Part shown: positions 5,570-33,639 of the stretch, one piece after another
Numbering within the stretch: the first letter of the stretch is position 1
Layout of the letters: every line of letters begins with the position of its first letter
DNA from: a virus
Lineage: Duplodnaviria > Heunggongvirae > Uroviricota > Caudoviricetes
Virus record (IMG/VR): IMGVR_UViG_2703718855_000002
Strand: one strand, 5' to 3'
Length of the DNA: 39,413 bases
The notes under the pieces: model-generated
The model's database searches: none
Told to the model about the DNA's origin: nothing
What the model saw: the letters and a program-made list of their open reading frames with translations, nothing else
Made by a program: the position numbers and the translations under genes

Positions 5570-6154
5570 TTATTGTTTGTTTTTTTCGTTCTGGTTGATG
5601 ACAAATTCAATGTAACTTTCGATCTTTGCTTTCTCGGTTTCAGGTAACAATGCGTAGCGCGAGCGGTCATAGTTGATAGTTGCAGGGTCGTGCGGGTGAA
5701 TCAGTAGTTCATATCCGTGACGCCCGAATGCAGATGCAACATTCTCCAGGGTGGAAATGGAAACGCTGACCTCATTGTTTAACAGGCGGCTGATTGTCAC
5801 CTGGGCGACGCCGGATGCGCGGTGAAGTTTTCCCTGTGTTGAAAGGTCGCGGCTTTCGCTCATCCAGCGTTCCAGGTTGTGAGCCGCCAGCTGACCAATG
5901 TCGCTTGGGCCGACAGGCTGAAAACCTTCCTGAGAAAGCGAGCGATCGATATCAAGCCAGTTACGGGGTTTATTGGCGGCAGCTTCAATTTTTCGCGCAA
6001 CCTGGTCGCCGATAACCTTCTTGCCAAGAGCCCAGCGGTTTACCAGATTTGCCTGAGTTCCAAGTTTTTCAGCCATCCGCGTCTGAACACCATTGAATTC
6101 ACGGTCGATCAAGTCGTTGAGATTTTGCCTGCGGACGTCCTGGATACTTTTCAT
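5570..6154 (-). CDS. Prophage repressor (CI-like, XRE-type HTH, no S24 peptidase domain)
   Basis: 194 aa; N-terminal HTH (TRMAEKLGTQANLVNRWALGKK); divergent from Cro-like gene with palindromic operators on both sides; C-terminal half has a second HTH-like segment (ASGVAQVTISRLLN). Confidence 0.7.
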   Translation of the reverse strand: MKSIQDVRRQNLNDLIDREFNGVQTRMAEKLGTQANLVNRWALGKKVIGDQVARKIEAAANKPRNWLDIDRSLSQEGFQPVGPSDIGQLAAHNLERWMSESRDLSTQGKLHRASGVAQVTISRLLNNEVSVSISTLENVASAFGRHGYELLIHPHDPATINYDRSRYALLPETEKAKIESYIEFVINQNEKNKQ

Positions 6155-6560: not shown

Positions 6561-6584
6561 AGACCGCCATCCGGCGGTCTTTTC
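6561..6584 (+). terminator. Rho-independent terminator (tR1-like) after cro-like gene
   Basis: AGACCGCC-ATCC-GGCGGTCT hairpin followed by TTTT. Confidence 0.6.
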
Positions 6585-6594
6585 ATATCTATTC

Positions 6595-6609
6595 GTACCT
6601 CAAAGGTAA
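6595..6609. promoter_or_regulatory. Operator-like palindrome, imperfect (GTACCTCAAAGGTAA)
   Basis: One mismatch in left arm; lies between tR1-like terminator and next gene. Confidence 0.3.
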
Positions 6610-6689
6610 TAAAAAACCAAATCTGGTTGATCTTTTTTTTGTGTCAGCACAAAATGACCGTAATCCCAATACTAATAACAGGGCTTACC

Positions 6690-8503: not shown

Positions 8504-8540
8504 CACCAGCGCGGCAGCGCATTTTTTTACGCCTGTATAA

Positions 8541-8555
8541 TTACCTTGCAGGTAA
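8541..8555. promoter_or_regulatory. Operator-like palindrome TTACCTTGCAGGTAA
   Basis: Perfect site in intergenic region after P-like gene; 62 bp from site 8603. Confidence 0.5.
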
Positions 8556-8602
8556 CAAAATATGCGCATAGCTATTGATTTTAACTCTAATGTGGATTTA
8601 AA

Positions 8603-8617
8603 TTACCTGAGGGGTAA
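8603..8617. promoter_or_regulatory. Operator-like palindrome TTACCTGAGGGGTAA
   Basis: Perfect site overlapping the RBS of the gene starting at 8621. Confidence 0.5.
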
Positions 8618-10987: not shown

Positions 10988-11337
10988 TGGACTATTCACA
11001 GTTAAGTGATTTTGAAATTAACAGAATGGTAGGAGACATAATTTTTAAAGGCCTTTGGGCATGTAAACCGGAAACATCAGGGAATAACACCAACAAATGG
11101 TATTACGGAAATGCTGATACAACTTTTGAGCCATTAAACCCTTTACCTGACTACTGCAATAATCCATCGGATGCATGGCCTATTATTGTTGATAATAAAA
11201 TCAGTCTAACCTGCCACCAATCTCGCGGTGAGTGGTCAGCTGTTTTTAATGCCGAGAACATTTGCTTTCATGCGAATAATCCACTCCGAGCCGCCATGAT
11301 TGTATTTCTCATGATGCAGGAAAATCAGAATGGCTAA
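10984..11337 (+). CDS. Hypothetical protein
   Basis: 117-aa ORF with overlapping start/stop on both sides. Confidence 0.4.
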   Translation: MMDYSQLSDFEINRMVGDIIFKGLWACKPETSGNNTNKWYYGNADTTFEPLNPLPDYCNNPSDAWPIIVDNKISLTCHQSRGEWSAVFNAENICFHANNPLRAAMIVFLMMQENQNG

Positions 11338-11668
11338 ATCAGCAGCAGAGCGCAAAGCCGCTCAGAGAGCCAGACAAGCTGCATCTGGTGTGCGTAAGCT
11401 GGAGATTGTGCTTGATGCTCAGGAAATTGAAATGCTGGAGCGTAACTGTGCCACGCGTCGCCCCGGGCGTGCGCCTTACGAATTTGGTGAGTATATAGCG
11501 TTACTGATCCGCCAGGATGATGCACGCGTGCACGGGCGTATAAAATCGATCAGCAGAAAACGTTGCGGTAAGTGCGGCGAGAGAGTTCCTGTGAATTCAT
11601 GCCCGTGTAATGGCGACTCGCAATGCTGGGTGACTAAAGGCTGGCATGAAACGAAATTAATAGTGTGA
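11330..11668 (+). CDS. Hypothetical protein with Cys-rich C-terminus; candidate late regulator by position
   Basis: 112 aa; CGKCGERVPVNSCPCNGDSQCW; last gene before the terminator/terminase junction. Confidence 0.4.
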   Translation: MAKSAAERKAAQRARQAASGVRKLEIVLDAQEIEMLERNCATRRPGRAPYEFGEYIALLIRQDDARVHGRIKSISRKRCGKCGERVPVNSCPCNGDSQCWVTKGWHETKLIV

Positions 11669-11676
11669 CATGTCAC
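11665..11676. repeat. 12-bp perfect palindrome GTGACATGTCAC (copy 1)
   Basis: Overlaps stop codon of 11330..11668; 42 bp upstream of terminator hairpin. Confidence 0.6.
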
Positions 11677-11717
11677 GAGTAGATTATGCATGATGAATTT
11701 GATGGGTTTTGAATACT

Positions 11718-11744
11718 GCCGCCAACTATGGCGGCTTTATTTTG
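11718..11744 (+). terminator. Rho-independent terminator immediately upstream of terminase genes
   Basis: GCCGCCA-ACTA-TGGCGGC hairpin followed by TTTATTTTG. Confidence 0.6.
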
Positions 11745-11754
11745 CATGGTACTA

Positions 11755-11769
11755 TTACCACAACGGTAA
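11755..11769. promoter_or_regulatory. Operator-like palindrome TTACCACAACGGTAA
   Basis: Perfect site between terminator and terminase small subunit start. Confidence 0.5.
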
Positions 11770-11772
11770 CTA

Positions 11773-11787
11773 TTACCACGGTGGTTA
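11773..11787. promoter_or_regulatory. Operator-like palindrome, imperfect (TTACCACGGTGGTTA)
   Basis: One mismatch; overlaps terminase small subunit RBS/start. Confidence 0.3.
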
Positions 11788-12383
11788 TGATGCCTGCTGA
11801 ACCTAAAACCTATAAACGCAAATCAACGCAATTTAAGCCACTAACAGCAATGCAGGAGGCTTATTGCCAGTCATACATCAAAACGCCTGAAAACCAGACT
11901 CAGGCAGCGATTAACGCAGGATTCTCCCCAAATACAGCGGCAGTTAAAGCCAGTGTCATGATGCGCGATGAACGCATTCAAAAACGGATTGCCGAGTTGA
12001 TGGAGGAGCGCAACAAACGAATGCGCGTCAGTGCTGATTACGTTCTCATGCGCCTGGTGGAGATCGACCAGATGGACGTGATCGACATCCTCAACGACGA
12101 TGGGAGCCTTAAACCAATCCGTGAGTGGCCGAAAATCTGGCGCACTACGCTTAGTGGCTTTGATCTGTCATCGACCATCATGAACATGAACGAGGATTCG
12201 ATAGAGACAATCCTCAAAAAAATTAAATGGCCTGACAAGGTGAAGAACCTTGAGCTGATTGGTAAGCATGTTGATGTCAACGCGTTCAAAGAACGTCTGG
12301 ATGTTAATGTGAATGTGACAATTGCTGATCGCATAGCAGCAGCCAGGAAGCGACTCAAAGAACGTCAGGATGGTAATCAGTGA
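11787..12383 (+). CDS. Terminase small subunit
   Basis: Start ATG 11787 (MMPAEPKTYKRK), downstream of terminator; the track TTG start at 11709 lies inside the terminator; precedes large subunit with overlapping stop/start. Confidence 0.7.
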   Translation: MMPAEPKTYKRKSTQFKPLTAMQEAYCQSYIKTPENQTQAAINAGFSPNTAAVKASVMMRDERIQKRIAELMEERNKRMRVSADYVLMRLVEIDQMDVIDILNDDGSLKPIREWPKIWRTTLSGFDLSSTIMNMNEDSIETILKKIKWPDKVKNLELIGKHVDVNAFKERLDVNVNVTIADRIAAARKRLKERQDGNQ

Positions 12384-13855
12384 CAGATACAGAGTTATCT
12401 CCTGAAGAGCAGTTGATCGAGGATATTGCAGGGTTCACTCACGATCCGCTTGGCTATGCCCTCTATGCGTTCCCGTGGGGGGAAGAGGGGACTGAACTGG
12501 CACATGCCACCGGCCCACGTCAGTGGCAGGCTGATGCGTTCCGAGAGATACGTGATCACCTGCAGAATCCAGAGACGCGCTATCAGCCGCTTATGCTGGC
12601 ACGCGCTTCTGGTCACGGTATTGGTAAATCCGCATTCATCTCAATGCTGATCAACTGGGGCATGTCCACTTGCGAGGATTGTAAGGTCGTGGTGACCGCC
12701 AACACCGACAACCAGCTACGAACGAAGACCTGGCCGGAAATTATCAAGTGGTCGAACCTTGCTATCACGAAAGAGTGGTTTACCTGTACCGCTACCGCGA
12801 TGTACAGCAATGACCCTGGGCACGACAAGCGGTGGCGAGCTGACGCAATCCCCTGGTCTGAGCACAACACTGAGGCATTCGCCGGACTACACAACGAGCG
12901 AAAACGCATCATCGTGGTATTCGATGAAGCGTCGAACATTGCGGATCTGGTGTGGGAAGTTGCTGAGGGTGCGCTTACGGACGAAGACACTGAGATTATC
13001 TGGGTGGCGTTCGGAAACCCTACACGTAACACCGGACGTTTCCGCGAATGTTTCCGCAAATATAAACACCGCTGGAAAACTGCGCAGATTGACAGCCGAA
13101 CGGTGGAAGGCACTAACAAACAGCAGTTGCAGAAATGGGTTGATGACTACGGGGAAGACAGCGACTTCGTTAAAATCCGTGTGCGCGGCATATTCCCTGA
13201 TGCATCTGAATTGCAGTTTATCCCTACCGGTCTTACTGATGAGGCAATGAAACGGGTGGTAACCGCTGCGCAGGTGGCGCATGCTCCGGTGATAATCGGT
13301 GTTGACCCGGCATATTCAGGCGTTGATGACGCGGTGATATACCTGCGGCAGGGGCTACACAGTAAGGTGCTGTGGACTGGCAACAAGACTACCGACGATC
13401 TGATTATGGCGAAGCGTATCGCTGACTTTGAAGACCAGTATCAGGCTGACGCGGTGTTCATCGACTTCGGTTACGGAACCGGTCTGAAGTCAATCGGTGA
13501 CGGATGGGGTCGTACATGGCAACTTGTTCCGTTCGGTGGCGCGTCTACTGACCCGCAGATGCTCAACAAGCGTGGGGAGATGTTCAATTCATGCAAGACA
13601 TGGCTGAGGCTGGGCGGCATGCTGGATGACCAGGAAACAGCAGACGACCTGTCGGCGGCAGAGTACAAAGTTCGAGTGGATGGTAAAATCGTTATCGAAC
13701 CGAAGGAAGATATCAAGGAGCGGCTTGGGCGTTCGCCGGGTAAAGGCGATGCGCTACTGCTGACGTTTGCGTTCCCTGTGTCTAAGCGTCTGCGAATTCC
13801 CGGGCAGCAGAACCAGCAAGGCAAGGCCATCACAGATTACGATCCCTATGCTTAA
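12380..13855 (+). CDS. Terminase large subunit
   Basis: 491 aa; Walker A-like GHGIGKS; GTG start overlapping small subunit stop. Confidence 0.85.
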   Translation: MTDTELSPEEQLIEDIAGFTHDPLGYALYAFPWGEEGTELAHATGPRQWQADAFREIRDHLQNPETRYQPLMLARASGHGIGKSAFISMLINWGMSTCEDCKVVVTANTDNQLRTKTWPEIIKWSNLAITKEWFTCTATAMYSNDPGHDKRWRADAIPWSEHNTEAFAGLHNERKRIIVVFDEASNIADLVWEVAEGALTDEDTEIIWVAFGNPTRNTGRFRECFRKYKHRWKTAQIDSRTVEGTNKQQLQKWVDDYGEDSDFVKIRVRGIFPDASELQFIPTGLTDEAMKRVVTAAQVAHAPVIIGVDPAYSGVDDAVIYLRQGLHSKVLWTGNKTTDDLIMAKRIADFEDQYQADAVFIDFGYGTGLKSIGDGWGRTWQLVPFGGASTDPQMLNKRGEMFNSCKTWLRLGGMLDDQETADDLSAAEYKVRVDGKIVIEPKEDIKERLGRSPGKGDALLLTFAFPVSKRLRIPGQQNQQGKAITDYDPYA

Positions 13856-13897: not shown

Positions 13898-13925
13898 TAA
13901 AACAAAGCCAGCTCATCGGCTGGCT
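13898..13925 (-). terminator. Rho-independent terminator after reverse-oriented gene 13946..14317
   Basis: Minus-strand hairpin AGCCAGC-CGATGA-GCTGGCT followed by TTTGTTTTAT. Confidence 0.5.
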
Positions 13926-13929
13926 GTTT

Positions 13930-13941
13930 GTGACATGTCAC
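13930..13941. repeat. 12-bp perfect palindrome GTGACATGTCAC (copy 2)
   Basis: Lies between stop of 13946..14317 (minus) and its terminator hairpin. Confidence 0.6.
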
Positions 13942-13945
13942 GGTG

Positions 13946-14317
13946 TTATTGCTCGCTTAGCTTCTGCTTCAGCAAGTAACCTTCGAGCATCCAGATTTTG
14001 TTTACAGCATTCTGCCGGGCAATCTTCCGACCAATTTCTGCATCAAAGTTTTCCGGGCTTGCACAGGCGCTCTCTCCGGTGACGGTGAAGCCGTTGCGCA
14101 GCACCAGGACGCAGAACGTCAGCAGAGAAAGTGATTCGTGCGGCTGGTAGTTTACCTCTCCGCCAGTATGTTTCGCTTTTATGGCTTTGCCAAAGGCACC
14201 ATCTTCTGCTGTGAAATATGCCTCCTGAGCAATAATGCCTTCGATATGGTCTGGCGTAACGCGCGGTGCCGTTTTGCCTTTCTCAACGATTTCTTTTTCG
14301 ATTTGCTGGTCGTTCAT
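13946..14317 (-). CDS. Hypothetical protein (reverse-oriented accessory gene next to tRNA)
   Basis: 123-aa ORF with SD AAGGTGAG 6 nt upstream of ATG 14317. Confidence 0.5.
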   Translation of the reverse strand: MNDQQIEKEIVEKGKTAPRVTPDHIEGIIAQEAYFTAEDGAFGKAIKAKHTGGEVNYQPHESLSLLTFCVLVLRNGFTVTGESACASPENFDAEIGRKIARQNAVNKIWMLEGYLLKQKLSEQ

Positions 14318-14328
14318 AATCTCACCTT

Positions 14329-14353
14329 AAAAAAAATGCCCGGCGAACCGGGC
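14329..14353 (-). terminator. Rho-independent terminator downstream of tRNA-Arg
   Basis: Minus-strand hairpin GCCCGG-TTCG-CCGGGC followed by T-run. Confidence 0.55.
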
Positions 14354-14516
14354 GAACTGGAAGCAATGAGTTATGCCTTCCGTGGCTGTACTGGTTTACA
14401 GCATGAAGTCATCGCAATGGCGTCCTGCTGTAAAAAGGGCGGTGGTAGTCCTTCAAGGGAAACCATCACCGCCAAGCCCCTGGAACTTCTGGCATCACGG
14501 TCCTTAGGCGTGATTC

Positions 14517-14592
14517 TGGCGTGGCATGCAGGATTCGAACCTGCGACCAACCGCTTAGAAGGCGGTTGCTCTGTCCAACTGAGCTAATGCCA
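14517..14592 (-). tRNA. tRNA-Arg (anticodon UCU)
   Basis: Reverse complement folds as cloverleaf: 7-bp acceptor stem GTGGCAT/ATGCCAC, anticodon loop CUUCUAA, T-arm GGTTCGAATCC, discriminator G, encoded CCA. Confidence 0.85.
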
Positions 14593-14915
14593 CAACGCTG
14601 AGAGCACTTAGCCTGTTAAGGCGCCACATTTTGTCGCGGCTCCATAAATGCTCTCATCGTTGTACCCTCGTCTCTTCCGAGGCGTCACACCGAATCGCCG
14701 GGATGGTGAATCCCCGTGCGCGGAATAAAACCGCTCGACTTGCACATTCCGGCTACCTGGTTCGTTTGCCCGAGCAAGGGAGGGTGCCCCTTAAACGTAT
14801 CCAGACCGCTATCGGCGCATGTGCCATACGCCGTACTGCTCAAAATAAAAGCTCACTCCACCTGTTCAATTTAACGACAAGCCAGTCAGGTTAATAACCG
14901 GAATGAACTCTTTGG

Positions 14916-14930
14916 TTACCTGAAAGGTAA
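14916..14930. promoter_or_regulatory. Operator-like palindrome TTACCTGAAAGGTAA (upstream of structural operon)
   Basis: Perfect TTACC-N5-GGTAA. Confidence 0.5.
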
Positions 14931-14968
14931 TAATTTGTGCGTTAAATGTCAACTATCTACGATAAATA

Positions 14969-14995
14969 AATCATATGTGGTTAAATTGGTAATAA
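14969..14995 (+). promoter_or_regulatory. Candidate late promoter: AATCATATGTGGTT - 7 nt - TAATAA
   Basis: 14-bp near-palindrome then 7-nt spacer then -10-like hexamer; same architecture at 33613 and 36253. Confidence 0.45.
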
Positions 14996-15020
14996 TTTAA
15001 TTGCGTACGGAGTCATTGAT

Positions 15021-26702: not shown

Positions 26703-28501
26703 GTTACTTTGGCCTTAATCCAGTAAACCAGAATCAGCAGCTTGACGAAGCAGCATCAAATCCAGCTGGCTTTAACAGCGATGTTGGTTTTTTCGACAAT
26801 GCTGTAGGAGCGGCATTGTCTGGTTTGTACTCCGGGCTGGTGGCAAAGCCAGATCAGTTGCTATGGGCAGGGATGGATAAAATCGTATCCCCGATTGCTC
26901 AGTTTGTTAACGAAAACACCTCGCTCAATGACACTTCAGTTTCATACATTGCTGAGCAGAGAAAACTAGCAGAGCAGCAGGTTAAGCGGCTGACGCCTGA
27001 TGCCGCGACAACCGGAACCGCCGGGCAGGTCCTTTATGGGTTGTTCGATATGGGCGGGCAGGCTGTTGTCGGTACAACGCTCGGTGGTCCGGTCGGAGGT
27101 GCTGCGGCGGTAACTTCGCTACAGGGTTTTTCTGAGTTTGAACGGCTGACAGCACAGGGTGTTGATTTCAGGACGGCGCAGGAAGCGGGATTAGTGCAGG
27201 GTATTACTGCTGGTGCCGGAACACTGATCCCTATGAGCCTCGGGTTACGTGCTGGTGGTGCGCTGGCGGAAGGTGTGGCGGCTCAGCTTGCGCGGACGGG
27301 TGAAAGTTCAGTGCGACGCGCCGCAGCAACAGCAGTACGTGCAACGCCAGATATTGCCTATGCCGCAGGTACAAATATTGCGTTCGGTATGGCACAGCGT
27401 GGGCTTACTGCAAAAACGCTTCGTGATGGTGGCTATAGCGAAATGGCTAACCAGTATGATGTGTTGGATCGACAGGCAATTGCTATTGATGCTGTTCTTG
27501 GGGTGGCGTTTGGTGGTGTCGGCAGATTTATTAACTCTCGCGGCGAGTCTACAAGCGCACCAAATTTTTCACCAGTTGATATTGATGCTGCACTGGCGGC
27601 GAATGCCGCTCATCATGCTGAAATTGATATTGCTCCCGGCGTTCCGATCAACGTGCTTTCGCGTAATTCGCACATTCAGGCTCTGCGAAAAGCCATGTCT
27701 GATGTTAGCCAGGGGAGACCTGTAGACGTTGCCAGCATTGTTGAGTCTGCATCTTTCAGTGAAATTCCTGGGCGCAAGAGTCTGCTGTCTCAGGCAGTTA
27801 ATGAGGCTCTGTCATCTGTAGATGATGGAGTAACTGCGCGCGCTATAGAAAATCGGTTGCTTGAAGAACAGGCTGCGCAGCTTTTGCCGCGTGGCGATAG
27901 ACAGGTTTACCAGTCTGAAATCGCTAATAGCCAACGAATTATCGACAATCTCACTGAACAGCGCGCACAAATTCTTGCAGAAGAGCCAACTGGTAGCGGT
28001 AAAGCTTTGTCTCGTGCTCGATCAGATAAACAGGCCAGAATTCGCGATATTGACCAACGAATCCGGCAGGCACAAGAACGCCTGGAATTTTCCCGTAACG
28101 CGTTGGCGCCGCACGAGCCTGGAGGTCAGTTTTTTGAAGCTCGAGCAGAACTGGCACGGCGACAGCAGGCAGAAAGTGAACTTAATGCTCAGGCTGTTTC
28201 ATTCTATAAAACAGCAGAGGTCAGGACGCCAGACGAAGTAGCTCCTTTTGAGCCCGGTAAGATATTGCAACAGACAGAACAAAAAATGATGGCAGATCCG
28301 GCAGGAGATATTGATCTGCGTATAGCTGAAGACTCGCTGCTTGAATCTCCGGACATGATAATCACCGTGCTGGATGATGATGGTAATCCACAATCGCGCA
28401 GTGCGCGTGAAGTACTGGATGAAGCGAACAGGGAAAGTGAGCAGGCAATACAGGATTCCAGCCTGTTTGATGTTGCTGTGGCGTGTTTCTTGAGAGGTTA
28501 A
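26699..28501 (+). CDS. Internal virion / ejection protein (gp16-like, part 1)
   Basis: 600-aa ORF, Ala/Gly-rich with coiled-coil C-terminus. Confidence 0.5.
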   Translation: MSYFGLNPVNQNQQLDEAASNPAGFNSDVGFFDNAVGAALSGLYSGLVAKPDQLLWAGMDKIVSPIAQFVNENTSLNDTSVSYIAEQRKLAEQQVKRLTPDAATTGTAGQVLYGLFDMGGQAVVGTTLGGPVGGAAAVTSLQGFSEFERLTAQGVDFRTAQEAGLVQGITAGAGTLIPMSLGLRAGGALAEGVAAQLARTGESSVRRAAATAVRATPDIAYAAGTNIAFGMAQRGLTAKTLRDGGYSEMANQYDVLDRQAIAIDAVLGVAFGGVGRFINSRGESTSAPNFSPVDIDAALAANAAHHAEIDIAPGVPINVLSRNSHIQALRKAMSDVSQGRPVDVASIVESASFSEIPGRKSLLSQAVNEALSSVDDGVTARAIENRLLEEQAAQLLPRGDRQVYQSEIANSQRIIDNLTEQRAQILAEEPTGSGKALSRARSDKQARIRDIDQRIRQAQERLEFSRNALAPHEPGGQFFEARAELARRQQAESELNAQAVSFYKTAEVRTPDEVAPFEPGKILQQTEQKMMADPAGDIDLRIAEDSLLESPDMIITVLDDDGNPQSRSAREVLDEANRESEQAIQDSSLFDVAVACFLRG

Positions 28502-31137: not shown

Positions 31138-31149
31138 GTGACATGTCAC
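31138..31149. repeat. 12-bp perfect palindrome GTGACATGTCAC (copy 3)
   Basis: Directly abuts terminator hairpin 31150..31167. Confidence 0.6.
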
Positions 31150-31175
31150 AGGCCGCTTTCGCGGCCTTGTTTTTA
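31150..31175 (+). terminator. Rho-independent terminator ending the internal-virion-protein operon
   Basis: AGGCCGC-TTTC-GCGGCCT hairpin followed by TGTTTTT. Confidence 0.65.
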
Positions 31176-31334
31176 ACGAATGCCACCTCCGCCCGGGCGA
31201 GAATCCGCAGAACGCCCACCGCAGCGGGAGCCGTCAGCGGCAGTATCGCTGTCGTGCTGACAACGACCGGCAAAGGCCTGAGTTGAAGCTACCAGAGACA
31301 ACAAAACGAACAGTGCAGCAAATGCTTTTTTCAT
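31173..31334 (-). CDS. Small secreted peptide (53 aa; Sec signal peptide, 2 Cys, Gly-rich mature part)
   Basis: MKKAFAALFVLLSLVASTQAFA then GRCQHDSDTAADGSRCGGRSADSRPGGGGIR; own promoter TTGACG-16-TATAGA at 31375..31348; no strong SD. Confidence 0.4.
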   Translation of the reverse strand: MKKAFAALFVLLSLVASTQAFAGRCQHDSDTAADGSRCGGRSADSRPGGGGIR

Positions 31335-31347
31335 TGTGAAATTTCCA

Positions 31348-31375
31348 TCTATAAGCCACCTCAATGTGGCGTCAA
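31348..31375 (-). promoter_or_regulatory. sigma70-like promoter for small secreted peptide gene
   Basis: -35 TTGACG (31375..31370), 16-bp spacer, -10 TATAGA (31353..31348) on minus strand. Confidence 0.45.
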
Positions 31376-31404
31376 TGAGTGTAGCACTGACTTTTGTTTC
31401 GTCC

Positions 31405-31428
31405 ACAAAAAAGCCCGCGCTGCGGGCT
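31405..31428 (-). terminator. Rho-independent terminator after 210-aa gene
   Basis: Minus-strand hairpin GCCCGC-AGC-GCGGGC followed by TTTTTT, 5 nt after stop. Confidence 0.6.
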
Positions 31429-31432
31429 TCTA

Positions 31433-32065
31433 TTAATGCAGTTTATCTTTGCTTATAACCAGTAGTCTGTGGGTATGCACATCTTTATCACTGCCCCAAC
31501 AGAAATCAGCCCACTGGCTATAGAAATCATCCCATGATGTCATGAAGCTAAGAGGTCTATCTTCTTCAGAGCCATCTGAAACGTATACATTATATCCCGG
31601 GGTGTTTATAGCCCAAGAAATCATTCTTTCCCAGAATCTTCTCCCATCGATTGTTTGTTGCTCATCAGATACAACAATCGCATATTGCTCTAGGAAGAAC
31701 TGAAAAAAAATCTGAGGCAAACCATGAACAGCACGGTCATGAATAACATTAGGCGTACGCCATACCATGATCTGCGTACATGTTCTTTTGGCTTCGACGA
31801 TATCTTCCCGAAAGATTAACTTAACCGCATACACCGTTTCTGGAGTATCGCTGGTAGTAATCATTCTGTAATGATCGCCATTACAAGATTTTACAAGGCG
31901 ATAACCATAAGGTGTTGTGAATCCCGGAAGAACGAAATCAACCACACCTTTCGCTAAGTAGCTTTCGGTGTGACTAGTGTTCTTCTCAGACATGTTCAGT
32001 TTTCTATCGAAATCTGCTTCTGGGATAATGTATGGCATCGCTTTTCTTGTTGTATTTGTTCTCAT
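31433..32065 (-). CDS. Hypothetical protein, no recognisable family (moron; candidate accessory/exclusion function)
   Basis: 210 aa, Trp-rich and acidic; strong SD GGGAGGA; own operator-bearing promoter region and own terminator. Confidence 0.55.
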   Translation of the reverse strand: MRTNTTRKAMPYIIPEADFDRKLNMSEKNTSHTESYLAKGVVDFVLPGFTTPYGYRLVKSCNGDHYRMITTSDTPETVYAVKLIFREDIVEAKRTCTQIMVWRTPNVIHDRAVHGLPQIFFQFFLEQYAIVVSDEQQTIDGRRFWERMISWAINTPGYNVYVSDGSEEDRPLSFMTSWDDFYSQWADFCWGSDKDVHTHRLLVISKDKLH

Positions 32066-32124
32066 TTCGTCCTCCCATGTTTGGCTACAGGACGCGTTTT
32101 GAAGGGAAGATTAAAAATGCTTTC

Positions 32125-32139
32125 TTACCCTTGAGGTAA
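32125..32139. promoter_or_regulatory. Operator-like palindrome TTACCCTTGAGGTAA
   Basis: Perfect site 60-74 bp upstream of ATG of 210-aa gene. Confidence 0.5.
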
Positions 32140-32211
32140 TAGTACGCTATTCACCCCCAGTCTGCAATCTGTACAGAATTATTTAAAGGCACATCCCTGT
32201 GCCGCCGCCCG

Positions 32212-32922
32212 TCAGAAGAACCCAGCCTTGTCGTTGATGTACTCCGCGTGCGTCTGGATATCACGCAGGCATTTGCTCACACCGACGATGTAGCAGAACA
32301 TGGTGGTCAGTTCCGCCGCCGCGCCCGATACGTCGTGCCCGTCTTCCTGTAACTGGTTTAGCAGATTCATCAGCAGTGAGCTCTCCGTCAGGCCGAGAAC
32401 ACCAGACGGCGAATGAATCAGGCTACGGTAGCCTGGCTTCAGTGGGGCACTGTAGGTTTTGTTCTCTATCTTCATTGCCTGCATCACTGCTGATGCTGTG
32501 GCGTTGGCTACCTGGTCGGCAACCATCTTTATGCGTTCTTCCTGCGGGAGCGAGTTTTTAATGTAACTTCCGGTGCGGCGGATCTGAGGAAGAACCTCAC
32601 CTGTAACCCATTTACGAAAGCGGTAGGGGATAGTGCCTGGTGTCACCGCATCGCGGCAGCGGAGGATCAGTGTGTAGAGGCCTGACTCGGAGATGATGTT
32701 GATCTCTTTTACTCGGCTATCAAAAATTGCACGATGTTCATGCCCTATGTTGAACATAGACCTTTCATCATCATCCAGTTTTTCAAGTGATTGGGTGACG
32801 TTTTGGATACGCAGCGCACTACAAACGTCTTGGGCTACAAACCATGGTTGGCCATCGATAATGATGGAACGGATAGGGTTAACAGATTCAAATTTGAAGA
32901 TGGCAGTTTGAGCATTAGCCAT
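32212..32922 (-). CDS. Antirepressor (N-terminal Bro-N domain)
   Basis: FKFESVNPIRSIIIDGQPWFVAQDVCSALRI matches Bro-N; C-terminal 60 aa paralogous to product of 33238..33495; ATG 32922 with SD GGAGA. Confidence 0.7.
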   Translation of the reverse strand: MANAQTAIFKFESVNPIRSIIIDGQPWFVAQDVCSALRIQNVTQSLEKLDDDERSMFNIGHEHRAIFDSRVKEINIISESGLYTLILRCRDAVTPGTIPYRFRKWVTGEVLPQIRRTGSYIKNSLPQEERIKMVADQVANATASAVMQAMKIENKTYSAPLKPGYRSLIHSPSGVLGLTESSLLMNLLNQLQEDGHDVSGAAAELTTMFCYIVGVSKCLRDIQTHAEYINDKAGFF

Positions 32923-33077
32923 GGTGGTTATCTCCACTTAGTGATTTTAATCACCACCGCAACGCCAATTACTGGTGGTGAACTGGACAAGGTTGGCGTA
33001 CCGGCCTAAGTGGTACCGGCGTCCTTTCGGACCCCTGCCCAGCCCACCATAATTCGGATATGGCTGTGTTTAACGCA

Positions 33078-33101
33078 TAAAAAAACCACGTCTGGCGTGG
33101 T
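33078..33101 (-). terminator. Rho-independent terminator downstream of small antirepressor-like gene
   Basis: Minus-strand hairpin ACCACG-CCAGA-CGTGGT followed by TTTTTTT. Confidence 0.5.
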
Positions 33102-33191
33102 ATGCGCCACTTAGTAACTCGGGACGCCAATCCCGGCACTGGATTTTGCCAGTGCCCGATTACTATGGCACAAGAGGAGTGCGATGTAAAT

Positions 33192-33206
33192 TTACCGCAA
33201 AGGTAA
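33192..33206. promoter_or_regulatory. Operator-like palindrome TTACCGCAAAGGTAA
   Basis: Perfect site in the 300-bp region between the two antirepressor-like genes. Confidence 0.5.
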
Positions 33207-33237
33207 ATATAAGCACTCATCTTGGTAATTTCAAATC

Positions 33238-33495
33238 TTATCTGGTTTGTTTTCGTAATTGTTCGGCACAATAGTCGAGATGTGTTTGCAGATCCCGCAT
33301 AGACATCTGTGAGCTGGTGACGTAGTTAATCAGTGCAGTCAGTTCGGCAAGTGGGCCATCGACATTAAATCCATCCTTATCGAGATCCCGGAGTAATTTC
33401 ATCAAGTGCGATCCCTCCACCAGTGATCTGACGCCTCCCGGCGTGTGAATCCTTTCGGTAAATCCGTCTTCCAGTGGATAGTGATACTGCTGCAT
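33238..33495 (-). CDS. Small antirepressor-like protein (stand-alone paralog of the Ant C-terminal domain), LexA-controlled
   Basis: 85 aa from ATG 33495 (SD GGAGA); GGVRSLVEGSHLMKLLRDLDKDGFNVDGPLAELTALINYV aligns with Ant C-terminus SGVLGLTESSLLMNLLNQLQEDGHDVSGAAAELTTMFCYI; LexA box 22 bp upstream. Confidence 0.55.
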   Translation of the reverse strand: MQQYHYPLEDGFTERIHTPGGVRSLVEGSHLMKLLRDLDKDGFNVDGPLAELTALINYVTSSQMSMRDLQTHLDYCAEQLRKQTR

Positions 33496-33516
33496 CTTAT
33501 CTTCTCCATGCAATAA

Positions 33517-33532
33517 CTGTATATTTATACAG
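33517..33532. promoter_or_regulatory. LexA (SOS) box CTGTATATTTATACAG
   Basis: Perfect CTGT-N8-ACAG with AT-rich spacer, immediately upstream of small antirepressor-like gene. Confidence 0.75.
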
Positions 33533-33612: not shown

Positions 33613-33639
33613 ATCCATATGTGGTTTTTCAGGTAATAG
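33613..33639 (+). promoter_or_regulatory. Candidate late promoter: ATCCATATGTGGTT - 7 nt - TAATAG (tailspike)
   Basis: Same motif/spacing as at 14969 and 36253. Confidence 0.45.

What the first reader, a model, noticed from the sequence alone, without database searches (positions are those of the whole stretch)
11330..11787. Intrinsic terminator placed directly in front of terminase implies regulated read-through
The hairpin at 11718..11744 lies between the last early-type gene and the terminase start, with only about 40 bp (occupied by two operator-like sites) before the ATG. Late transcription must therefore either initiate upstream and read through, or initiate in the very short window after it. 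The Cys-rich 112-aa product of 11330..11668, whose stop overlaps a GTGACATGTCAC palindrome, is a positional candidate for a late regulator. The terminator at 6561..6584 after the Cro-like gene shows the same logic on the early side.
Basis: inference. Interest (0 to 1): 0.45.

Follow-up and report, generated by a model that had tools for sequence, protein, structure and literature searches.

The report
Terminator, own promoter, and orphan palindrome-binder
The hairpin before the terminase gene is a real terminator, but the terminase operon probably starts from its own repressor-controlled promoter just after it; the small Cys-rich gene upstream encodes an undescribed DNA-binding protein whose 12-bp target site sits on its own stop codon in many different phages.

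Summary
The window is a phiV10/epsilon15-type (Uetakevirus) temperate podophage. The interpretation needs changing.

- **The 'operator-like sites'** belong to a 14-copy family, TTACC-N5-GGTAA (0.7 expected). Copies also flank the CI-like repressor gene over PL/PR and precede every transcription unit.
- **A likely promoter.** Fused to the leader operator is TG-n-TA-x-TAT, an extended -10 signature. It is invariant in 61/61 distinct terS leaders and varies only at n and x. 25 of those leaders have no terminator upstream.
- **Best reading:** terminate, then re-initiate under direct repressor control. Regulated read-through is not needed.
- **Its stop-codon palindrome**, GTGAC-NN-GTCAC, occurs three times in the window at transcription-unit ends. 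It accompanies the gene in 162/181 distinct loci across Uetakevirus, lambdoid, N15-like and P2-like phages and ZF40; Vibrio phage K308 has sites elsewhere in its genome but none at the gene end.
- **Not a general late regulator.** N15 has Q, and the P2-like phage has an Ogr-like gene.
- **matS resemblance.** The half-sites equal those of E. coli matS, with a spacer one base shorter.
- **Function** of the protein-site pair is unknown; a boundary or roadblock role is my guess.

The parts
11330..11668 (+). Gene for a 112-aa ribbon-helix-helix + zinc-knuckle protein (phiV10 p55 / epsilon15 p49 / N15 gp46 family). It is the last gene of the early-right operon.
11665..11676 (.). Palindrome site 1, GTGACATGTCAC, overlapping the TGA of the 112-aa gene. 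Presumed cognate binding site of that protein.
   Evidence: GTGAC-NN-GTCAC lies at or near the stop codon in 162/181 distinct loci, including 17 with a TAA/TAG stop outside the motif.
11718..11744 (+). Intrinsic terminator: 7-bp stem with 6 GC pairs, tetraloop, then TTTATTTT. It ends the early-right operon.
   Evidence: Conserved with an A-to-G change (G-U pair) in Tyrion and the E15-like phage. Stays attached to the terS leader when morons are inserted upstream.
11747..11755 (+). Predicted extended -10 promoter element TGgTACTAT (P_terS). The last T is the first base of the operator. Predicted start near 11762.
   Evidence: TG, TA and TAT are invariant in 61/61 distinct leaders. Only n (G37/T13/A11) and the third hexamer base (C46/G9/T6) vary. 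Same register as the -10 hexamers of PL (AATTAT|TACC), 8536 (TATAAT|TACC) and 8597 (TTAAAT|TACC).
11755..11769 (.). Operator O1, TTACCACAACGGTAA (perfect TTACC-N5-GGTAA).
11773..11787 (.). Second operator-like site, TTACCACGGTGGTTA (1 mismatch), overlapping the Shine-Dalgarno GGTGG and the first base of the ATG. Present only in a subset of relatives.
11787..12383 (+). terS (Terminase_2), followed by terL at 12380..13855.
13906..13925 (.). Bidirectional terminator-like hairpin between terL and the convergent Phage_gp49_66 gene.
   Evidence: Annotated as a terminator in phiV10.
13930..13941 (.). Palindrome site 2, GTGACATGTCAC, 4 nt from the hairpin and 4 nt from the stop of the reverse gene 13946..14317.
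   Evidence: Syntenic copy in about 50 related loci, with sequence diverging immediately to its right.
31138..31149 (.). Palindrome site 3, GTGACATGTCAC, at the end of the structural-gene operon, abutting the + strand terminator 31150-31174.
5570..6154 (-). CI-like repressor gene (HTH_3). O1 operators lie on both sides: 5436, 5498, 6210, 6258.
   Evidence: The ZX5 homologue is shown to act as the repressor (PMC9782041).
6561..6609 (+). Terminator after the Cro-like gene (6561-6580 plus T run), followed by O1-like GTACCTCAAAGGTAA (6595-6609).
8510..8617 (+). A second junction of the same design: weak terminator (GCGC-GGCA-GCGC plus T7), TATAAT|O1 (8541), TTGATT-17-TTAAAT|O1 (8603, which overlaps the SD of gene 8621).

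Best explanation
The region 11330-11787 is a boundary between two separately controlled transcription units. It is not a read-through switch.

(1) End of the early-right operon. The operon ends with the 112-aa gene, that protein's presumed 12-bp binding site on the stop codon, and an intrinsic terminator.

(2) Start of the packaging operon. terS-terL starts about 10 nt after the terminator's T-tract. The start comes from its own sigma-70 extended -10 promoter, TGgTACTAT (11747-11755). Its predicted start site (about 11762) lies inside a TTACC-N5-GGTAA operator. A second operator-like site covers the Shine-Dalgarno and the ATG.

(3) What the operators do. They are copies of the sites that flank the CI-like repressor gene and overlap PL and PR. 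The prophage repressor therefore silences the packaging operon directly, as it does every other unit: replication, portal-to-tail, tailspike, lysis and the antirepressor block. Derepression switches the packaging operon on.

(4) What the terminator does. It insulates terS from the early operon, or from morons that relatives carry at this spot.

(5) The 112-aa protein. It is a ribbon-helix-helix DNA binder with a C-terminal zinc knuckle. I infer that it binds GTGAC-NN-GTCAC as a dimer or as two dimers. I propose, with low confidence, that it acts as a boundary or roadblock element at the ends of transcription units, and possibly limits its own synthesis.

What is shown: the motifs, their counts, their conservation, the protein fold, and the gene-site linkage. 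What is inferred: promoter activity, which repressor binds the operators, protein-site binding, and the boundary function.
For: Operator family:
- 14 copies of TTACC-N5-GGTAA at up to 1 mismatch against 0.71 expected, 0/100 shuffles.
- Same syntenic positions in phiV10, Tyrion and an E15-like phage.
- It is the top 5-N5-5 inverted repeat in 7 genomes, with 8-11 exact copies; the next best arm has 2.
- Sites 5436/5498 bracket PL (TTGACA-17-AATTAT), and 6210/6258 lie between the CI-like and Cro-like genes.

Promoter:
- TG-n-TA-x-TAT is invariant in 61/61 distinct leaders, with variation only at the two positions a sigma-70 extended -10 element tolerates.
- 25/61 of those leaders lack any terminator upstream.
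- The same -10|operator register is seen at PL, 8536 and 8597.

Repeated junction design:
- Terminator followed by operator at 6561/6595, 8510/8541 and 11718/11755.

Other support:
- Morons with their own LexA-box promoters sit between the 112-aa gene and terS in relatives, while the hairpin and leader stay with terS.
- In ZX5 (97% identical DNA) repressor overexpression lowers holin and endolysin mRNA by more than 99.9% (PMC9782041).

Protein and site:
- The motif is at the gene end in 162/181 distinct loci: 221 motifs in 1.09 Mb against about 1 expected.
- 1-3 sites in each of N15, ZF40, a P2-like Yersinia phage and Vibrio K308.
- The arms are invariant and the central dinucleotide is free.
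Against: - No transcript start, RNA-seq or binding data exist for any of these phages in the literature I could search.
- The predicted promoter has no -35. That region is the terminator stem, so the promoter may be weak or need a factor.
- TG-n-TA-x-TAT could instead be part of an extended asymmetric protein site, for example for TerS.
- All seven genomes share one operator type, so I could not show that the operator changes together with the repressor.
- If every unit is directly derepressed, the source of late timing is unexplained. A second palindrome, AACCA-N4-TGGTT, precedes the replication, portal, tailspike and lysis units but not terS. This hints at a further regulator.
- The boundary function proposed for the RHH protein rests only on where its sites lie. 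Some sites are inside genes: N15 repA, ZF40 gp08 and gp12.
Confidence: 0.6

Rival explanations
1. Late transcription comes from the early-right promoter and crosses the 11718 terminator only when the 112-aa protein, acting as an antiterminator, has accumulated. The palindrome would be its loading site: a Q-like DNA site or an N-like RNA hairpin.
For: - The gene is the last one before the terminator, and the palindrome lies 41 nt upstream of it, 23 nt in Tyrion/E15.
- In the window each palindrome lies just upstream of a terminator on one strand.
- The N-terminal helix is basic, with invariant R8 and R13.
- There is weak similarity of residues 47-106 to the RNA-polymerase-binding TraR/DksA zinc finger: E = 0.14-0.25 and hhalign probability about 50%.
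Against: - Only 20/110 distinct contexts have a terminator after the palindrome.
- 25/61 terS leaders have no terminator, yet all keep a promoter-like block.
- Morons of 0.2-2 kb with their own promoters separate the gene from terS in relatives.
- The family is present in N15, which has Q plus a late promoter, and in a P2-like phage with an Ogr-like gene. In both it is away from late genes.
- The fold is RHH, a double-stranded-DNA-binding fold.
- The arms are invariant and the centre is variable, which is the reverse of a protein-bound RNA hairpin.
- There is no match to Q or N families.
Confidence: 0.1
2. The leader holds no promoter. The two operators act only as repressor roadblocks, as in the 'stoperator' mechanism, stopping leak-through in the lysogen. 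In lytic growth terS is transcribed by unregulated read-through of a leaky terminator.
For: - Operators lie just downstream of terminators at three junctions.
- The second operator-like site covers the SD and ATG.
- There is no recognisable -35.
- From memory: mycobacteriophage L5 gp71 uses many intragenomic sites in this way.
Against: - It does not explain why TG, TA and TAT are invariant upstream of the operator with no symmetrical counterpart on the other side.
- It does not explain the identical -10|operator register at PL.
- A stem with 6 GC pairs followed by a T-tract with 7 T in 8 bases is a strong terminator.
- The sites are palindromic and not orientation-biased, unlike stoperators.
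Confidence: 0.15
3. Control is at the RNA level. The leader folds into a long hairpin that buries the terS Shine-Dalgarno and AUG. A factor, possibly the zinc-knuckle protein in the manner of Mu Com, opens it.
For: RNA 11700-11800 folds at -36.9 kcal/mol, z = -4.9, with the SD and AUG paired.
Against: - The pairing is what two adjacent DNA inverted repeats produce automatically.
- A transcript starting near 11762 would lack the 5' arm.
- The second repeat and the lower stem are not conserved in relatives, whose leaders read ATTTTCGGGGTGTTTACC and the like.
- The palindrome is about 100 nt away, and in relatives it is separated by inserted genes.
Confidence: 0.05

Closest known systems
Lambda-type delayed-early/late logic (tR1 with N-nut; pR'-tR' with Q)
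   Same: A terminator stands between functional gene blocks, and a small regulator gene is the last gene before the late block.
   Different: - There is no Q or N homologue.
- No promoter-plus-pause cassette lies upstream of the terminator.
- A promoter-operator block lies downstream of the terminator instead.
- The candidate protein has an RHH fold, and it also occurs in phages that have their own Q (N15).
Genome-wide repressor sites: lambdoid OL/OR operators and, from memory, the mycobacteriophage L5 gp71 'stoperators'
   Same: One repressor-type site is repeated many times (14 here). Copies lie at the immunity region and in front of, or inside, the leaders of early and late units.
   Different: The sites here are perfect palindromes (5-N5-5) placed at promoters, with the -10 abutting the site. 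L5 stoperators are asymmetric, orientation-dependent sites inside transcribed regions. I could not check whether the epsilon15 and phiV10 genome papers already list these repeats.
MatP-matS of E. coli (matS = GTGACRNYGTCAC; PMC6907758, Table 2)
   Different: - The spacer is 2 bp, not 3.
- No 13-bp matS occurs in the window, even at 1 mismatch.
- No sequence similarity to MatP (hhalign probability 0.3%).
- No four-helix-bundle domain and no C-terminal coiled coil; a zinc knuckle takes their place.
Small RHH regulators with short repeated sites (P22 Arc/Mnt, plasmid omega, CopG, F-like TraM)
   Different: - The site lies at the 3' end of the regulator's own gene rather than at a promoter.
- A Cys4-type zinc knuckle is present.
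- No partner toxin or transfer genes are nearby.
LacI binding at O3 at the 3' end of lacI (from memory: truncated lacI mRNA and SsrA tagging, Abo et al. 2000)
   Same: A DNA-binding protein whose site overlaps the end of its own coding sequence. This can give roadblock-based autoregulation.
   Different: This is purely an analogy and nothing was tested here. The phage site is also found at other places in the genome.

Membership tests
Rho-independent (intrinsic) terminator | GC-rich stem-loop followed directly by a T-rich tract on the transcribed strand | tested here: met
   7-bp stem with 6 GC pairs, 4-nt loop, then TTTATTTT. -14.5 kcal/mol, z = -4.1.
Rho-independent (intrinsic) terminator | Causes RNA 3' ends in vivo | not testable with these tools
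   No transcript data were found.
Sigma-70 extended -10 promoter | TG at -15/-14, one free base, then a TAnnnT hexamer. Conservation concentrated on TG, on -12T/-11A and on -7T. | tested here: met
   TGgTACTAT at 11747-11755. 61/61 leaders keep TG, TA and TAT, with variation only at n and at the third hexamer base.
Sigma-70 extended -10 promoter | Initiates transcription | not testable with these tools
   Needs 5' end mapping or a reporter.
Prophage repressor operator set | The same inverted repeat on both sides of the repressor gene, overlapping the divergent early promoters | tested here: met
   5436/5498 around PL; 6210/6258 between the CI-like and Cro-like genes.
Prophage repressor operator set | The operator sequence changes together with the repressor in heteroimmune relatives | tested here: inconclusive
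   All seven genomes examined share the same repeat, so there was no variation to test.
Q-type antiterminator system | Q-family protein; a binding element within a constitutive promoter; a short terminated transcript upstream of the late genes | tested here: not met
   No Q family hit. Only a weak 9/12 promoter-like match at 11665-11694, whose sequence and spacing are not conserved in Tyrion/E15. The family also coexists with a true Q in N15.
N-type antiterminator system | Arginine-rich motif peptide binding a boxB hairpin with a conserved loop and a covarying stem | tested here: not met
   The arms are invariant, the centre is variable, and the flanks show little covariation beyond their marginal frequencies. 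The fold is RHH.
Ribbon-helix-helix superfamily | Beta-strand, helix, helix core | tested here: met
Ribbon-helix-helix superfamily | Dimer inserts a two-stranded sheet into the major groove of a repeated DNA site | not testable with these tools
   Only a monomer model was possible. Binding is inferred from gene-site co-occurrence.
MatP/matS | 13-bp site GTGACRNYGTCAC | tested here: not met
   The phage sites are 12 bp (spacer 2). The window has 0 sites with spacer 3.
MatP/matS | Sequence homology to MatP, including its N-terminal four-helix bundle and C-terminal coiled coil | tested here: not met
   hhalign probability 0.3%. No MatP Pfam family among the 25 families listed of 27 hit by family members at E<=1. 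The domain layout differs.
DksA/TraR C4 zinc-finger proteins | Helix - CxxC...CxxC zinc finger - helix, homologous to PF01258 | tested here: inconclusive

The most novel reading that the evidence does not exclude
The 112-aa RHH + zinc-knuckle protein and its GTGAC-NN-GTCAC sites form an undescribed, widely distributed phage boundary system. The protein would load in cis onto the site at its own stop codon and onto one to three further sites at transcription-unit or module borders. There it would either block or terminate RNA polymerase, perhaps through a TraR-like contact with the polymerase, or bridge the sites in the way MatP bridges matS. That would insulate independently regulated blocks such as the early operon, packaging genes, the antirepressor operon and SOS-controlled morons. 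The matS-like half-sites would then reflect either shared ancestry with, or mimicry of, the host Ter-organising system.
Probability: 0.25. Interest if true: 0.7.

Novelty: new variant of a known kind. Interest (0 to 1): 0.5.

Why it matters
For the finding as written, little changes. A terminator followed by a repressor-controlled promoter is ordinary phage design. It means this widespread group of E. coli, Salmonella and Klebsiella prophages may run its packaging genes without an antitermination step.

Two by-products matter more.

First, a single operator type appears to govern every transcription unit, late genes included. This gives a simple, testable map of Uetakevirus regulation. That is useful because phiV10 is used as a reporter phage.

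Second, an uncharacterised protein family has a clear predicted DNA target. About 150 clusters at 50% identity are known, with members in N15, ZF40, P2-like, lambdoid, Vibrio and Aeromonas phages. The target is linked to the gene's own stop codon and shares half-sites with matS. A protein-site pair this well defined can be tested in a week by gel shift, and it could reveal a new way phages separate or organise genome modules.

Tried and rejected
- **RNA-hairpin reading of the palindrome.** Flank covariation was no better than expected from the marginal frequencies, except modestly at flank position 2. The arms never vary. Rejected as the main reading.
- **Promoter at the palindrome** (a P1 Lpa-like arrangement at about -22, or GTGACA as a -35). 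No -10 is conserved at sites 2 and 3 or in Tyrion/E15.
- **Palindrome as pac site.** cos phages (N15, P2-like) also carry it, and the site positions differ. Not pursued.
- **Read-through of the UGA-C stop.** The extended frame is open to about 11800, but it is not conserved where morons are inserted. Dropped.
- **First AF2 run with close homologues** gave pLDDT 58 and was unusable. The run with the diverse alignment worked.
- **Fold searches.** Foldseek against PDB and BFVD gave nothing beyond one RHH protein and a fragment of the same protein. The afdb50 library was unavailable.
- **The search for related loci with divergent alignments** failed for lack of conserved stretches. Single proteins were used instead.
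- **Literature.** No paper in the library contains GTGACATGTCAC. Nothing was found on late control in Uetakevirus. The epsilon15 and phiV10 genome papers were not found by the searches.
- **Heteroimmune covariation test for the operator** was impossible, because all seven genomes share the same repeat.
- **TraR-family profile** did not raise the hhalign probability.
Full report
**What the window is.** Megablast places the region in phiV10/epsilon15-type temperate podophages (Uetakevirus): TL-2011b, ZX5, PAS61, phiV10, Tyrion and others. The gene order is as follows:
- integrase;
- a leftward early operon;
- a CI-like repressor (5570..6154, HTH_3);
- a Cro-like gene;
- replication genes;
- nin-like genes (DUF551, NinX);
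- the 112-aa gene;
- terS and terL;
- a short reverse block (a Phage_gp49_66 gene and tRNA-Arg);
- portal to tail genes;
- a reverse antirepressor block;
- tailspike;
- lysis genes.

**Observation check.** The hairpin GCCGCCA-ACTA-TGGCGGC (11718-11735) followed by TTTATTTT is present. It is much more stable than shuffled sequence: -14.5 kcal/mol, z = -4.1. From the end of the T-tract (11744) to the terS ATG (11787) is 42 nt. That stretch holds ACTATTACCAC twice. The 112-aa ORF has six Cys, and its TGA lies in GTGACATGTCAC. The hairpin after the Cro-like gene (6561-6580) is equally convincing, z = -4.95.

**The 'operator-like' sites are real operators of a genome-wide set.** The direct repeat is a by-product of two adjacent inverted repeats of the form TTACC-N5-GGTAA.
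- This repeat occurs 14 times in the window at up to 1 mismatch, against 0.71 expected (0 of 100 shuffles).
- Two copies bracket the best promoter match in the region, PL (TTGACA-17-AATTAT on the - strand), to the left of the CI-like gene. Two more lie between the CI-like and Cro-like genes, one of them over the -35 of PR.
- The remaining copies lie after the Cro terminator (6595), after the replication genes (8541, 8603), in the terS leader (11755, 11773), upstream of the portal block (14916), in and beside the antirepressor block (32125, 33192), upstream of the tailspike (33572) and upstream of the lysis genes (36217).
- The same syntenic set is present in phiV10, Tyrion and an E15-like Salmonella phage.
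- In seven Uetakevirus genomes it is by far the commonest 5-N5-5 inverted repeat, with 8-11 exact copies; the next best arm has 2.
- I infer that it is the operator of the CI-like repressor. The ZX5 homologue of that repressor was shown to block lytic growth and to reduce holin and endolysin mRNA by more than 99.9% when overexpressed (PMC9782041).

**A promoter sits in the 42-nt gap.** I aligned 61 distinct terS leaders from related loci (terS identity down to about 45%).
- The conserved block is GC-R-TG-n-TA-x-TAT|TACC-N5-GGTAAT.
- TG, TA and TAT are invariant in 61/61. Only n (G37/T13/A11) and x (C46/G9/T6) vary. That is the information profile of a sigma-70 extended -10 element (TGnTATAAT). 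It has no mirror image on the other side of the palindromic operator.
- The hexamer ends on the first T of the operator. The -10 hexamers show the same register at PL (AATTAT|TACC), at 8536 (TATAAT|TACC) and at 8597 (TTAAAT|TACC, with TTGATT 17 bp upstream).
- 25 of the 61 leaders have no terminator-like hairpin upstream, yet they keep this block.
- In relatives with a small ORF or an SOS-controlled umuD-like moron inserted after the 112-aa gene, the hairpin (when present) and the leader stay attached to terS.
- The layout 'terminator, then within about 10-15 nt an operator' recurs at 6561/6595 and 8510/8541.

The simplest reading is that the genome is a string of short units. Each ends in a terminator and each restarts from a repressor-controlled promoter. 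terS-terL is one such unit, with a predicted start near 11762 inside the operator.

The strong predicted RNA hairpin over the terS ribosome-binding site (z = -4.9) is what two adjacent DNA palindromes produce. It is not conserved in relatives.

**The 112-aa protein.**
- It has no Pfam family. It matches phrog_536, labelled 'transcriptional regulator', and shows a faint likeness to the LexA-regulated RHH protein.
- The exhaustive search found only about 150 clusters at 50% identity, almost all 105-130 aa long.
- R8, C79 and C82 are invariant, and C99 nearly so.
- With a diverse alignment AlphaFold gave pLDDT 90. The model has a basic helix 5-19, an extended segment 22-29, helices 30-42 and 52-74, a Cys knuckle at 78-99 and helix 100-108.
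- The C-terminal half gives weak matches to TraR and YbiI, which are DksA/TraR zinc fingers that bind the RNA polymerase secondary channel. E = 0.14-0.25 and hhalign probability is about 50%. I treat this as an open lead only.

**The palindrome is the protein's constant partner.**
- GTGACATGTCAC occurs exactly three times in the window. The copies lie at the stop of the 112-aa gene (11665), between the terL hairpin and the convergent gene (13930), and at the end of the structural operon abutting its terminator (31138).
- The same three positions carry it in phiV10, Tyrion and the E15-like phage, although the flanks have diverged.
- Across 181 distinct loci encoding family members down to 35% identity, 162 have GTGAC-NN-GTCAC within a few bases of the stop codon.
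- 17 of those use TAA or TAG outside the motif, so the motif is not simply a coding constraint.
- In all there are 221 motifs in 1.09 Mb, against about 1 expected.
- The arms are invariant. The central dinucleotide takes nine different values. Flank complementarity is little better than chance. This is the signature of a symmetric DNA-binding protein rather than of an RNA hairpin.
- Whole genomes of unrelated phages with the gene carry 1-3 copies each: N15 (gene 46), ZF40 (gp22), a P2-like Yersinia phage (gp13, right after gpA) and Vibrio K308. About 0.04 copies are expected per genome.

**It is not the late regulator.** N15 has Q and a mapped late promoter, and the P2-like phage has an Ogr-like gene. 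In both, the family gene lies at the end of an early operon, away from late genes. Lambdoid and xis/int-adjacent contexts also occur. Of 110 distinct sequences following the palindrome:
- 20 have a terminator;
- 23 run straight into the next gene's ribosome-binding site;
- 22 have a LexA-box promoter whose -35 lies a fixed 6-7 bp from the palindrome;
- 45 have none of these.

Regulated read-through by this protein is therefore unlikely as a general mechanism. For this phage it is possible but unnecessary.

**What the protein-site pair might do.** The sites tend to lie between separately regulated units:
- early operon | terS;
- terSL | convergent tRNA/gp49_66 block;
- structural operon | convergent C4-ant operon;
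- in N15, repA operon | isrK-C4-ant promoter;
- in relatives, regulator gene | SOS-controlled moron.

Sequence divergence between relatives begins exactly at the palindrome edge. I therefore favour, with low confidence, a boundary or roadblock role. A site on the gene's own stop codon would also allow cis loading and self-limitation, in the way LacI acts at O3 (from memory).

The half-sites are identical to those of E. coli matS, GTGACRNYGTCAC (PMC6907758), but the spacer is one base shorter. The window has no 13-bp matS, and the protein shows no sequence similarity to MatP. So this is a resemblance, not membership.

**Verdict.** The sequence features are real. The inference that a terminator before terminase 'implies regulated read-through' is not supported. 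The comparative evidence points to re-initiation from a repressor-controlled extended -10 promoter inside the 42-nt gap. The interesting residue is an uncharacterised RHH + zinc-knuckle family with a sharply defined, matS-like 12-bp target tied to its own stop codon. None of the proposed activities has been measured. The decisive experiments are simple: 5' end mapping, two reporters and two gel shifts.

Noticed in passing
window 32971-33155 (- strand); L238 (N15) 28301-28489: Rfam finds a C4 antisense RNA (32971-33054) and an isrK-type RNA (33079-33155) upstream of the Bro-N/antirepressor gene 31433..32065. The reverse block is therefore a P1/N15-type immI antirepressor region. N15 has the same pair upstream of genes 32-30.
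   Followed up: partly
window 6615-6628, 14969-14982, 33613-33626, 36253-36266 (also 33234, 5462, 8590): A second palindromic motif, AACCA-N4-TGGTT (core ATNTGGTT: 17 copies against 5.5 expected), lies near operators upstream of the replication, portal, tailspike and lysis units, but not in the terS leader. It is conserved in phiV10, Tyrion and the E15-like phage. It may be the site of a second regulator, either Cro-like or an activator.
   Followed up: partly
window 13942-15020 and 31150-33520; related loci L011-L158: Sequence divergence among close relatives starts exactly at the right edge of palindrome sites 1 and 2. Different reverse genes, or morons such as a small ORF or a LexA-box umuD-like gene, follow. 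The palindromes therefore mark mosaic or module boundaries.
   Followed up: partly
window 38122-38133: GTGACATGGCAT, a 2-mismatch relative of the palindrome, overlaps the TGA of the Rz-like gene at the end of the lysis operon. It is not conserved in phiV10 or Tyrion, so it is probably chance.
   Followed up: yes
window 14517-14593 (- strand): A tRNA-Arg(TCT) lies between terL and the portal block, on the strand opposite to the late genes and next to a Phage_gp49_66 gene. An operator (14916) and a conserved CTATTGACA motif suggest a leftward repressor-controlled promoter for this block.
   Followed up: no
L003 (Tyrion record ends); L223, L225: The Tyrion GenBank record is opened exactly at the centre of the palindrome (GTGACA|TGTCAC). 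Two IMG/VR contigs end at the homologue's stop codon, within or next to the palindrome. I could not tell whether this reflects physical ends or annotation and assembly convention.
   Followed up: no
L062-L079 (e.g. L063 3501-5860): An 86-89% identical copy of the 112-aa gene, with its palindrome, sits in a lambdoid remnant directly upstream of lambda-like xis/int and a host ybhC-like gene. This is a defective prophage at the lambda attachment region.
   Followed up: no
window 38238-38254: The attP core attgagtgggaatgatt reported for phage ZX5 (PMC9782041) is present between the lysis genes and the - strand ORFs at the right end of the window (38343..39413). The window is thus a complete, circularly permuted phage genome rather than a prophage with host flanks.
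   Followed up: no
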